This document shows positions 58,945 to 60,102 of a DNA stretch of 64,000 bases, piece by piece. The DNA is taken from IMG/VR virus record IMGVR_UViG_3300026263_000200, one strand, 5' to 3'. A model generated the notes under the pieces. The model saw only the letters and a program-made list of their open reading frames with translations. It did no database searches and had not been told where the DNA came from. How positions within the stretch are numbered: the first letter of the stretch is position 1; every line of letters starts with the position of its first letter. Origin of the DNA: a virus. The position numbers and the translations under genes are program-made.

Positions 58945-59066
58945 AACACGCAAAAAAGGAACAAGAAGAATTAGATGAATCTATGAAAGAATCATTTAGA
59001 CAGCGTGATGAACGTAAGAAAAAAGAATTAGAAGAAAAGAAAGGAAAGGAGGATAAAATTGAGTAG
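58929..59066 (+). CDS. Small highly charged protein (45 aa), not in the ORF track
   Basis: MEDFLEHAKKEQEELDESMKESFRQRDERKKKELEEKKGKEDKIE; overlaps both neighbours. Confidence 0.5.
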   Translation: MEDFLEHAKKEQEELDESMKESFRQRDERKKKELEEKKGKEDKIE

Positions 59067-59268
59067 AGGTATTACAGTTGAAGTAAGACACGGTAATGTA
59101 GAGAAAGCTATGAGAGTGCTTAAGAAAAAATTACTTAAAGCAGGTACGTTAAGAGAGTATAGAGAAAAGCAATACTACAGAAAACCATCTGAAATTAAAA
59201 GAGAAAAGAAAAAAGAAGGTATAAAGAATTACAAAAAGCAACAGAAATTAAGAGAATCAAGATTATAG
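59059..59268 (+). CDS. rpsU: Ribosomal protein bS21
   Basis: V.V..GNVEKAMRVLKKK, E.R.KQYY.KPSE.KR; TTG start after AGGAGG. Confidence 0.92.
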   Translation: MSRGITVEVRHGNVEKAMRVLKKKLLKAGTLREYREKQYYRKPSEIKREKKKEGIKNYKKQQKLRESRL

Positions 59269-59270
59269 AA

Positions 59271-59548
59271 TTTCCAACGCCTGTGCTTTGATAACATAAA
59301 TATATTATACCAGGCAATTCATAAGTCCTGGGGCGTGGAAAGGTGCCAGTCCTACATATTTTAAATATGAAAACTGGTAGTAGTTTGAGGTCTACTATAA
59401 CAAAACCTCAATGAATTTAGTTATTCAGGAGCGGTAGCCTTAACCTGATGTGTTTGTTTAGCAGTTGCGCTTCGTTCAACACCCCAAAAAGAACTAAAGT
59501 AGCAGACTATTTTTGGTAGTTTTGAAGTCTATAACTCAAAAAACTACC
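59271..59548 (+). ncRNA. Candidate structured non-coding RNA (several stems, two H-type pseudoknots)
   Basis: Locally GC-richer intergenic region with at least seven complementary pairs (listed in findings); family not recognised. Confidence 0.5.
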
Positions 59549-59555
59549 TTAACTA

Positions 59556-59583
59556 CTTGTAATTTGGAAAATAGTACATATAT
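59556..59583 (+). promoter_or_regulatory. Alphaproteobacterial RpoH (sigma32)-like promoter of hsp20
   Basis: CTTG-N17-CATATAT versus consensus CTTG-N17/18-CYTATNT. Confidence 0.5.
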
Positions 59584-59592
59584 AAGTAGTAG

Positions 59593-59652
59593 TGAGTTGC
59601 CATTAAGGGACTCATATAATTAAAATAACTTTGCTTAATAAAGGAGGTTTAT
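59593..59652 (+). promoter_or_regulatory. ROSE-like RNA thermometer in the hsp20 5'UTR
   Basis: Hairpin 59593-59614, then AACUUUGCUU-AAUA-AAGGAGGUU (59627-59649) with UUGCU and a bulged G opposite the SD. Confidence 0.65.
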
Positions 59653-60102
59653 ATGACCAATAAAGCATTATCTATTTTTAATCAATTAAGACCAGTATCA
59701 ATAGGATTTGATAATATCTTTGACCATTTTGAAAGAATGTTTGAAGATGATTTTTCATTACCTACGATACCAAATTATCCGCCATACAATATCGTTAAAA
59801 CAGGCAAGAACAAGTACGATATTGAAGTAGCTCTTGCTGGATATTCTAAAAAGGATATTCAAGTGAACTATGAGGACGGTCTTTTGACTATCAAATCTGC
59901 TAAAACAGAAAAAGACGAAAGTAAAGATGACAATGGTAATATCTTACATAAAGGTATCGCTAAAAGATTCTTTTCTAAAGCTTTCACGGTTGCTGATGAT
60001 TGCGAAATCAAAGGTGCTGAATTGAAAGATGGTCTTTTGAAAGTATCTATGGAGAAGATTATTCCAGAGAGCAGAAAAGCAAAAACAATAGACGTTAAGT
60101 AA
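59653..60102 (+). CDS. hsp20: Small heat-shock protein Hsp20 (IbpA-like)
   Basis: IGFD, NYPPYNI, IEVALAG, LHKGIA.R.F...F, A.L.DGLL. Confidence 0.95.
   Translation: MTNKALSIFNQLRPVSIGFDNIFDHFERMFEDDFSLPTIPNYPPYNIVKTGKNKYDIEVALAGYSKKDIQVNYEDGLLTIKSAKTEKDESKDDNGNILHKGIAKRFFSKAFTVADDCEIKGAELKDGLLKVSMEKIIPESRKAKTIDVK

What the first reader, a model, noticed from the sequence alone, without database searches (positions are those of the whole stretch)
59271..59548. Candidate novel ncRNA with two related pseudoknots between rpsU and hsp20
Seen, in the largest non-coding gap of a dense genome: tttcc-a-acgcc/ggcgtggaaa (59271-81/59332-41) enclosing ccagg/cctgg (59310-14/59327-31); tgccagt/actggta (59344-50/59373-79) with inner catatt/aatatg; pseudoknot A, tagtag/ctacta (59378-83/59392-97) crossed by ttgaggt/acctcaa (59385-91/59405-11); tcagg/cctga (59425-29/59444-48); pseudoknot B, agact/agtct (59504-08/59526-30) crossed by ggtagtttt/aaaactacc (59515-23/59540-48). 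A and B share GGTAGT..TTTGARGTCT..ATAAC..AAAA. A near-consensus late box CATAAATA lies at 59295-59302. Inference: an undescribed phage structured RNA, perhaps ribosome/bS21-related, a ligand sensor or a nuclease-resistant decoy.
Basis: partly seen in the sequence, partly recalled or inferred. Interest (0 to 1): 0.75.

Follow-up and report, generated by a model that had tools for sequence, protein, structure and literature searches.

The report
Pseudoknot-rich RNA trailing phage S21
The 280 bases after the ribosomal-protein S21 gene of this SAR11-type ocean phage encode a real folded RNA with three pseudoknots, supported by compensatory base changes and absent from Rfam; it follows the S21 gene in nearly every related phage, but its job is still only inferred.

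Summary
Each one tested against relatives is kept by compensatory base changes. The window is a pelagimyophage (HTVC008M/Mosig relative). I collected 92 distinct homologues from viral and metagenome contigs. All 90 that can be tested lie directly behind a phage bS21 gene, on its strand, one copy per genome.

On a 91-sequence alignment of the 5' half, 90.8% of cells pair against 77% in shuffles, and the top mutual-information column pairs are the proposed base pairs. The likeness between pseudoknots A and B is superficial.

The conserved core is P1, a junction with a late-promoter-like box, P2 and PK0. Pseudoknot A, two hairpins and pseudoknot B are accessory modules that diverged lineages lack.

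Rfam, ARAGORN and 185,579 prokaryote genomes gave nothing. There is no conserved ORF and no terminator.

Function is untested. The best reading is a structured trailer of the rpsU message with a second, late, 5'-truncated isoform, possibly a bS21-binding RNA.

This scan has found the same family before on other genomes, and earlier follow-ups reached similar verdicts.

The parts
59059..59268 (+). rpsU (phage ribosomal protein bS21), 69 aa; its stop codon ends 2 nt before P1
   Evidence: Pfam Ribosomal_S21, E 4.6e-14; ORF list.
59271..59281 (+). P1, 5' strand (one bulged A)
   Evidence: Pairs with 59332-41. Helix 1 is 91.2% paired, and 4 of its 8 pairs change on both sides. Indel compensation is seen in L047/L050. 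The strand lies 0-11 nt from the rpsU stop in 91 homologues.
59279..59286 (+). Junction motif GCCUGUGC, invariant in the main clade (its first three bases close P1)
   Evidence: Invariant columns. The invariance is partly forced by my search patterns, but the motif was also near-invariant in loci collected through the S21 protein alone. It is relaxed in diverged lineages.
59295..59302 (+). Late-promoter-like box (CATAAATA) in the P1/P2 junction, 7 nt before P2
   Evidence: The 7-mer core is invariant in the main clade although its flanks vary, and it sits 5-7 nt from P2. Diverged lineages have a TATATA-type box at the same place. The full T4-type 8-mer occurs 16 times on + and once on - in this window. 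No transcript data.
59310..59331 (+). P2 hairpin with the most conserved loop of the family
   Evidence: 100% paired, 4 of 6 pairs change on both sides. It is kept even in HTVC008M, where the rest of the core is lost.
59332..59341 (+). P1, 3' strand (purine-rich)
   Evidence: See the P1 5' strand entry.
59341..59378 (+). Stem 1 is 59341-43/59351-53. An inner hairpin at 59355-69 lies in its third loop.
   Evidence: Stem 2 is 90.4% paired and all 5 pairs change on both sides. Stem 1 is 72% paired in one alignment register, with three covarying forms read from the alignment. Stem 2 pairs are among the top MI pairs. PK0 is present in all diverged lineages.
59378..59411 (+). Pseudoknot A (H-type): stem 1 59379-83/59392-96, stem 2 59385-91/59405-11, A-rich third loop
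   Evidence: Stem 2 is 99.2% paired and all 6 pairs change on both sides. Stem 1 is 79.9% paired with 4 of 5 changing. It is absent in L080, L054 and L260.
59425..59448 (+). Hairpin H4 with a 14-nt conserved loop
   Evidence: 13 distinct variants, with compensatory changes in the stem and one covarying pair inside the loop.
59450..59482 (+). Hairpin H5: outer stem 59450-56/59477-82, inner 3-bp stem 59460-62/59469-71 with a hexaloop
   Evidence: 26 variants in relatives. The outer pair of the inner stem switches A-U to G-C without exception, and the outer stem covaries. The window's own copy was read by eye.
59504..59548 (+). Pseudoknot B (H-type) closing the RNA: stem 1 59504-08/59526-30, stem 2 59515-23/59540-48, U-rich first loop, A-rich third loop
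   Evidence: Model R2 finds one copy per locus and only here in the window. A PK B-like module is also seen upstream of hsp20 in HTVC008M.
59553..59652 (+). Context, not part of the RNA: hsp20's own promoter-like site (TTGTAA, 16 nt, TATATA at 59557-59584) and its conserved 5' UTR
   Evidence: Conserved directly after pseudoknot B in 62 homologues. It stays with hsp20 when an ORF is inserted, as in Mosig.
59653..60102 (+). hsp20 (small heat-shock protein), downstream neighbour
   Evidence: Pfam HSP20, E 7.3e-16. It lies downstream in 70 of 73 homologous loci: adjacent in 54, behind an inserted ORF of about 1 kb in 16.

Best explanation
Shown: window 59271-59548 (+) is one member of a conserved, non-coding, modular RNA family of pelagimyophages. 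Its core is a closing helix P1, a junction carrying a late-promoter-like box, hairpin P2 stacked on P1, and pseudoknot PK0. In this phage the core is followed by pseudoknot A, hairpins H4 and H5, and pseudoknot B.

Inferred from anatomy:
- The RNA is made as the 3' trailer of the rpsU (bS21) message. The 5' strand of P1 starts 0-11 nt after the rpsU stop, leaving no room for a promoter of its own, yet P1 is kept by compensatory changes.
- A ribosome terminating on rpsU must therefore melt P1.
- The junction box would start a second, late transcript 5-7 nt further on, at the foot of P2. That isoform lacks the 5' strand of P1 and leaves the purine-rich 3' strand free. T4 uses the same layout for genes e, soc, 49 and I-TevI (from my own knowledge).
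- With no terminator before hsp20, both forms run on.

Most likely job (inference, about 1 in 3): a cis-acting regulatory and stabilising domain of the rpsU transcript. Its fold reports whether rpsU is being translated and the stage of infection, and it binds a protein, with bS21 itself the prime candidate.
For: - Fold: covariation in six helices of the 5' half, independent RNAalifold and MI ranking; pseudoknot B, H4 and H5.
- Strand: many G-U pairs that would be A-C mismatches on the other strand.
- Non-coding: about 7 stops per frame in 280 nt, and no ORF shared between lineages.
- Link to rpsU: 90 of 90 testable homologues. The link extends to S21 genes only 52-54% identical. The RNA stays with rpsU when an ORF is inserted before hsp20. 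One copy per genome.
- P1 abuts the stop codon.
- Box: conserved while its flanks vary, at fixed distance from P2. The T4-type late box is strand-biased 16:1 in this phage.
- No terminator between rpsU and hsp20.
- Precedent that bS21 binds a structured ncRNA: OLE RNA (PMC12054373).
Against: - There are no transcript ends, no expression data and no binding data; everything about function is inference.
- HTVC008M keeps rpsU but has lost P1, PK0 and pseudoknot A behind an inserted ORF. Its bS21 enters E. coli ribosomes when expressed alone (PMC6375957). The RNA is therefore not needed for bS21 to work.
- Known ribosomal-protein operators sit at the 5' RBS, not 3' of the ORF.
- In the T4 layout the freed strand carries the RBS of a gene. 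Here no conserved ORF follows.
- The box could instead be an RNA-level motif.
- Synteny among relatives can persist by descent alone.
Confidence: 0.5

Rival explanations
1. It is a stand-alone, stable, trans-acting small RNA, cut out of the rpsU read-through transcript or started at the junction box. It acts on the host translation apparatus, for instance as a binding platform or decoy for host or phage bS21 or for 30S subunits.
For: - Dense, pseudoknot-capped architecture with defined 5' and 3' structures.
- Highly conserved single-stranded motifs typical of protein or RNA contact sites.
- One copy per genome.
- bS21 is known to bind a structured ncRNA.
- In this window, stem 2 of pseudoknot A reads like a Shine-Dalgarno/anti-SD core duplex.
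- T4 makes stable small RNAs of unknown role (rnaC, rnaD; my own knowledge).
Against: - No terminator or known processing signal.
- The SD-like reading of pseudoknot A stem 2 covaries away in other lineages.
- Apparent matches to the 3' end of 16S rRNA are not conserved across lineages.
- HTVC008M does without most of the RNA.
- Viral bS21 enters ribosomes alone.
Confidence: 0.2
2. It is a long 5' leader of late transcripts for hsp20 (or whatever gene follows), and it tunes that gene's expression, for example as a sensor of temperature or of a ligand.
For: - hsp20 follows in 70 of 73 loci.
- The box would start a transcript that runs into hsp20 with no terminator between.
- A closing helix with conserved junction bases resembles an aptamer.
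Against: - hsp20 has its own conserved promoter and 5' UTR, which stay with it when an ORF is inserted, while the RNA stays with rpsU.
- P1 needs sequence upstream of the box.
- There is no expression platform next to the hsp20 RBS that pairs with the RNA.
Confidence: 0.12
3. It is a self-cleaving ribozyme or a nuclease processing site that separates the rpsU message from downstream RNA.
For: It lies directly after a stop codon. Pseudoknotted compact folds are typical of small ribozymes, and phages carry HDV-like and other ribozymes (my own knowledge).
Against: - No match to any ribozyme family in Rfam, even at E<=10.
- The order of strands does not fit the HDV-like nested double pseudoknot. 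The strand that would have to pair with the junction covaries with a different partner.
Confidence: 0.05
4. The region is protein-coding (small ORFs, as annotated in phage Mosig), or it is a DNA-level element such as a promoter cluster or origin, and the hairpins are incidental.
For: Mosig carries two annotated 38-39 aa CDS over the homologous stretch. The region holds promoter-like boxes.
Against: - ORFs differ in frame, place and length between lineages, and all frames are full of stops.
- Substitutions are compensatory across helices, and G-U pairs mark the + strand RNA.
Confidence: 0.03
5. It is a tmRNA-like or tRNA-like RNA, since a string of H-type pseudoknots is also found in tmRNA.
For: Three to four serial H-type pseudoknots. 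The host clade (Alphaproteobacteria) has two-piece tmRNA (my own knowledge).
Against: - ARAGORN finds no tRNA or tmRNA, and Rfam gives no tmRNA hit.
- There is no T-arm or acceptor/CCA end next to P1.
- No reading frame is conserved (indels).
Confidence: 0.02

Closest known systems
T4 late promoters placed inside hairpins of read-through transcripts
   Same: A late-promoter box lies between the two strands of a helix (P1). The early read-through RNA can close the helix, while a late RNA starting 5-7 nt after the box cannot.
   Different: In T4 the freed 3' strand carries the ribosome-binding site of the gene being controlled. Here no conserved ORF follows, and the helix closes a large folded RNA.
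bS21 binding site in OLE RNA (Wencker, Lyon and Breaker 2025, PMC12054373)
   Same: A large structured non-coding RNA tied to ribosomal protein bS21. In the window, stem 2 of pseudoknot A looks like an SD/anti-SD duplex, the feature bS21 recognises in OLE.
   Different: There is no sequence or fold similarity and no Rfam OLE hit. The SD-like letters are not conserved across lineages. Binding is untested. OLE is bacterial, about 600 nt, and not next to rpsU.
Orphan structured RNAs of marine T4-like phages (manA RF01745, wcaG RF01761)
   Same: Conserved folded RNAs in intergenic regions of marine myophages, known from comparative analysis only, with unknown function.
   Different: No match to either model. 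The architecture differs (serial H-type pseudoknots), and so does the fixed position behind rpsU.
tmRNA
   Same: A string of H-type pseudoknots with A-rich third loops.
   Different: No tRNA-like domain and no tag reading frame; ARAGORN and Rfam are negative.
Pseudoknotted operators in ribosomal-protein and phage mRNAs (S4 alpha operon, S15, T4 gene 32 leader; my own knowledge)
   Same: A pseudoknot in the message of an RNA-binding protein that could be bound by its own product.
   Different: Those lie in the 5' leader at the start site. This one begins after the stop codon.
T4 stable RNAs species 1 and 2 (rnaC, rnaD; my own knowledge)
   Same: Small non-coding RNAs of a T4-like phage with no known role.
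   Different: No sequence relation was tested or is expected. Those lie in the tRNA cluster.

Membership tests
Any Rfam 15 family (4227 models) | Covariance-model score at or above the family's gathering score | tested here: not met
   0 hits in the whole window. Only noise at E<=10 in 59000-59900. Only tRNAs elsewhere in nine homologous loci.
H-type pseudoknot (structural class) | Two stems whose strands interleave, each kept by compensatory changes | tested here: met
   PK0 and pseudoknot A: with crossing brackets. Pseudoknot B.
tmRNA | tRNA-like domain (acceptor stem, T-arm, CCA end) | tested here: not met
   ARAGORN finds none. No tmRNA model matches. No T-arm lies next to P1.
tmRNA | Conserved tag reading frame between pseudoknots | tested here: not met
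   No shared ORF or frame; frame-breaking indels between lineages.
T4-type late promoter inside a hairpin | Late box located between the two strands of a helix formed by the read-through transcript | tested here: met
   The box at 59295-59302 lies between the P1 strands, and P1 covaries.
T4-type late promoter inside a hairpin | The 3' strand holds the ribosome-binding site of a downstream gene | tested here: not met
   The strand is purine-rich, but no conserved ORF follows.
T4-type late promoter inside a hairpin | A late transcript starts a few bases after the box | not testable with these tools
   No transcript data are held. The pelagiphage transcriptome paper that the search turned up does not mention HTVC008M; I did not read it.
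HDV-like ribozyme | Nested double pseudoknot with strand order P1, P2, P3, P3', P1', P4, P2' | tested here: not met
   The strand after the inner hairpin pairs with 59345-50, not with the junction, and covaries with it.
OLE-type bS21 binding site | SD/anti-SD-like duplex with conserved G-C pairs, bound by bS21 | tested here: inconclusive
   Stem 2 of pseudoknot A reads SD-like in the window, but its middle pairs covary freely in other lineages. Binding cannot be tested here.
Ribosomal-protein autoregulatory operator | Lies at the translation start of the regulated message | tested here: not met
   The element starts 2 nt after the rpsU stop codon.

The most novel reading that the evidence does not exclude
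The RNA is a dedicated partner of virus-encoded bS21. The core (P1/P2/PK0) would be a specific bS21 binding platform made from the same transcript. It could let the phage titrate or sequester bS21 (its own or the host's), or build a small RNP that retunes SAR11 ribosomes during infection. That would be a virus-encoded ribosomal-protein/ncRNA pair.
Probability: 0.18. Interest if true: 0.85.

Novelty: new variant of a known kind. Interest (0 to 1): 0.7.

Why it matters
Pelagimyophages infect SAR11, the most abundant marine bacteria, and bS21 is the ribosomal protein most often carried by viruses.

[quoted passage not shown] A large, intricately folded RNA fixed to the 3' end of that gene in nearly every relative, down to 52% protein identity, qualifies that statement. 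It also gives a concrete, testable handle on what viral bS21 is for.

It adds an uncatalogued multi-pseudoknot RNA family, with enough natural variation for a good model, to the few structured RNAs known from marine phages. It also shows that two 'hypothetical protein' genes annotated in phage Mosig are probably not genes.

Tried and rejected
- **Rfam:** nothing at gathering score or at E<=10, on the window and on nine diverse homologous loci.
- **ARAGORN:** no tRNA or tmRNA.
- **Prokaryote genomes:** the conserved-core pattern has 0 exact hits in 185,579 genomes. The S21-protein scan of the same collection gave only five loci. One (L260) is a phage-like contig binned as Planctomycetota and carries a minimal version of the RNA. 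No SAR11 rpsU locus was reached, so I could not check whether the host gene has a similar trailer.
- **16S rRNA mimicry:** three short matches to the 3' minor domain (read by eye, from memory of the rRNA sequence) are each expected by chance and are not conserved between lineages; dropped.
- **tmRNA and HDV-like folds:** rejected (see membership tests).
- **Stop-codon read-through extension of bS21:** the frame relative to the conserved bases varies.
- **T4 MotA-box middle promoter over the junction motif:** pelagimyophages lack motA/asiA, and the letters that would matter vary.
- **Small ORFs:** not conserved.
- **Long-range pairing of the invariant junction motif with a conserved GCGC elsewhere:** possible, but both sides are invariant, so covariation cannot test it.
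- **Extra tertiary pairs:** none stood out in the MI scan.
- **Second copies of the core or of the P2 loop in the window:** none.
- **My own error:** model R2 was built with the 3' strand of stem 2 set one column off. Its alignment A5 was still usable, and I recounted it with the correct columns.
- **Column-wise counting of pseudoknot B stem 1:** not possible because loop lengths differ, so I used per-sequence parsing with a shuffle control instead.
- **Distant S21 phages (L081-L099):** no match to the core model. Two have a different gap of about 220 nt before hsp20.

Full report
**What the window is**

The stretch lies in a T4-like phage of SAR11. The best public matches are Pelagibacter phages HTVC008M and Mosig EXVC030M. 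The ORF at 59059-59268 is ribosomal protein bS21 and the one at 59653-60102 is Hsp20. The 384-nt gap between them is mildly G+C-enriched, 0.385 against 0.23-0.33 around it. It folds better than shuffles on both strands.

**The observation**

I checked each coordinate pair of the finding on the sequence, and all are exact. To ask whether the stems are more than chance, I collected relatives in four ways:
- an exact pattern from the P2 region in IMG/VR;
- loci encoding relatives of the S21 protein;
- a looser core pattern in IMG/VR;
- the same looser pattern in metagenomes.

An nhmmer profile kept 172 loci, and these reduce to 92 distinct elements.

A MAFFT alignment of the first 165 nt (A1) already let RNAalifold find P2 and stem 2 of pseudoknot A, each with several pair types. 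A covariance model of the 5' half (R1) aligned 91 sequences (A2). On A2, 33 pairs in six helices (P1, P2, both PK0 stems, both pseudoknot A stems) gave these figures:

| Measure | Observed | Shuffled |
|---|---|---|
| Cells forming a standard pair | 90.8% | 77.0% |
| Cells changed on both sides | 313 | 83 |
| Covariation score | 0.372 | 0.141 |

No shuffle out of 500 reached the observed values, and sliding the partners by 1-3 columns gives only 35-51% paired. An MI/APC scan that knows nothing of the structure puts the proposed pairs at the top of the list. The many G-U pairs would be A-C mismatches on the other strand, so the RNA is read from the + strand.

- **PK0.** The stem 59344-50/59373-79 is not a plain hairpin. 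The bases flanking its 5' strand (59341-43 and 59351-53) pair with each other and covary in three forms.
- **H5.** A further hairpin lies at 59450-82. Among relatives its inner 3-bp stem switches A-U to G-C without exception.
- **H4.** The hairpin at 59425-48 is confirmed by compensatory variants.
- **Pseudoknot B.** It is confirmed. Stem 2 is 92.7% paired on an alignment that had been fitted to a wrong register, so the alignment was not biased towards the right one. At least a dozen distinct combinations of stem 1 and stem 2 keep the same topology. In 36 of 44 distinct sequences, at most 3 of 60 dinucleotide shuffles reach the observed pseudoknot score.
- **Likeness of A and B.** The shared letters fall on non-equivalent strands and vanish in other lineages, so I do not read A and B as related copies.

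**Architecture of the family**

The element is modular. Diverged versions behind S21 genes that are only 52-69% identical keep P1, the boxed junction, P2 and PK0, but not the rest:

| Lineage | Modules kept |
|---|---|
| L080/L079 | Core plus pseudoknot B |
| L054 | Core plus a G+C-rich hairpin |
| L260/L052 | Core only |

Other lineages insert about 100 nt of extra hairpins and another pseudoknot, and in L051 the modules come in a different order. HTVC008M has an ORF (gp110) after S21. It keeps only the box, P2, a hairpin and a B-like pseudoknot. The core is thus P1/junction/P2/PK0, and pseudoknots A and B are accessories.

**Context**

- All 90 homologues with enough upstream sequence have S21 directly upstream.
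- The 5' strand of P1 begins 0-11 nt after the stop codon, and 0-1 nt after it in most.
- hsp20 follows in 70 of 73 loci. In the 16 loci where an ORF of about 1 kb is inserted, Mosig shows the RNA staying with rpsU and hsp20 keeping its own promoter and leader.
- There is one copy per genome in two phage records and two long IMG/VR contigs, and one in this window.
- There are no exact matches to the core pattern in 185,579 prokaryote genomes.
- There is no intrinsic terminator between rpsU and hsp20.
- No ORF is conserved, and all frames carry about 7 stops in 280 nt. The two small CDS annotated over the homologous stretch of Mosig are probably artefacts.

**The box**

The 7-mer core of the late-type box is invariant in the main clade although its flanks vary in length and sequence. 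It always ends 5-7 nt before the first pair of P2. Diverged lineages have a TATATA-type box at the same place. In this window the full T4-type 8-mer occurs no more often than chance, but 16 of its 17 copies are on the gene strand. That fits use as a late promoter.

If the box fires, the late RNA begins at the foot of P2 and lacks the 5' strand of P1. P1 nevertheless covaries, so the read-through RNA from rpsU is also under selection. The difference is that no gene start follows here.

**How it most likely works**

- **Shown:** a conserved, non-coding, + strand, pseudoknot-rich fold fixed to the end of rpsU.
- **Inferred:**
  - It is transcribed as the rpsU trailer.
  - A terminating ribosome, which covers a dozen or so bases past the stop (established knowledge), must open P1.
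  - A late isoform starts at P2.
- **Speculative, about 1 in 3:** the folded core regulates or stabilises the rpsU transcript and binds a protein, bS21 being the obvious candidate. bS21 is known to bind a structured ncRNA through an SD/anti-SD-like duplex (PMC12054373).

Two facts argue against a strict dependence. HTVC008M has lost most of the RNA yet keeps rpsU. Its bS21 enters E. coli ribosomes when expressed alone (PMC6375957).

The rivals, with their odds, are in the rival list: a processed trans-acting small RNA, a late leader for hsp20, a ribozyme or processing site, coding or DNA-level features, and a tmRNA-like RNA.

**Comparison with what is known, and novelty**

Nothing in Rfam 15 matches. 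The pelagimyophage genomics paper states that S21 belongs to no gene cluster and needs no other viral factor. The viral ribosomal-protein paper does not mention an RNA. Full-text searches for bS21 with phage and non-coding RNA turned up only the OLE work.

It is therefore an uncatalogued RNA family. I rate it a new variant of a known kind: orphan structured RNAs of marine T4-like phages, built of ordinary H-type pseudoknots, with a T4-like promoter-in-hairpin layout. I do not rate it categorically new, because no new mechanism has been shown.

This scan has met the same family on several other genomes. Earlier follow-ups also judged it real, uncatalogued and of unknown function. One of them found only one of two pseudoknots to hold in its genome. 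Here both hold.

**Limits**

- Part of the collection was drawn with patterns that contain the 'invariant' bases, so their invariance is overstated. The S21-based collection shows the same picture, with exceptions in diverged lineages.
- A2 was fitted to a model that contained four of the six helices.
- Pair counts are not corrected for phylogeny.
- Stem 1 of PK0, of A and of B shift register between lineages, so the column counts understate them.
- No expression, probing or binding data exist.

Noticed in passing
window 59590-59652: The hsp20 5' UTR is conserved across HTVC008M, Mosig and many contigs, and in outline even in distant myophages (L081, L083). It has a hairpin with a fixed GCCAUNAGGG-type loop. 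After it comes a U-rich stretch that could pair with the Shine-Dalgarno sequence, which would make a possible RNA thermometer.
   Followed up: partly
window 59553-59589: An imperfect inverted repeat brackets the hsp20 promoter-like site (TTGTAA, 16 nt, TATATA). The same arrangement follows pseudoknot B in most relatives.
   Followed up: partly
L002:1099-1347 (Mosig EXVC030M, MT647606.1): Two annotated hypothetical CDS (Mosig_00015 and Mosig_00014, 39 and 38 aa) lie entirely inside the homologous RNA. Neither is conserved as an ORF in relatives, so they are probably mis-annotations.
   Followed up: yes
window, whole: The T4-type late box TATAAATA occurs 17 times, about the chance number, but 16 copies are on the + strand. 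This suggests real late promoters along a one-directional gene block.
   Followed up: no
L077:4202-4351, L062:4184-4254, L044:4209-4279: In some relatives one or two tRNA genes lie about 0.7-1 kb downstream of the RNA, so this part of the genome gathers RNA genes. The window itself has no tRNA.
   Followed up: no
L081:3217-3432 and L083:3211-3440: More distant marine myophages (S21 about 53% identical) also place hsp20 after rpsU. The gap of about 220 nt does not match the core model and appears to hold different hairpins. I did not analyse it.
   Followed up: no
L260 (NYSS01000132.1, labelled Planctomycetota MAG): This 10.8-kb contig carries phage-type S21, a minimal version of the RNA and the hsp20 leader. 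It is likely a phage contig mis-binned into a bacterial MAG.
   Followed up: partly
L061, L062, L049, L051 and others: Long forms of the RNA carry an extra block of about 100 nt: a conserved CAUUGGUC-type stretch, a hairpin with a GUAAGA loop, and another pseudoknot. The block is absent from the window. In L051 it lies after, not before, the B-like pseudoknot, so modules are shuffled.
   Followed up: partly
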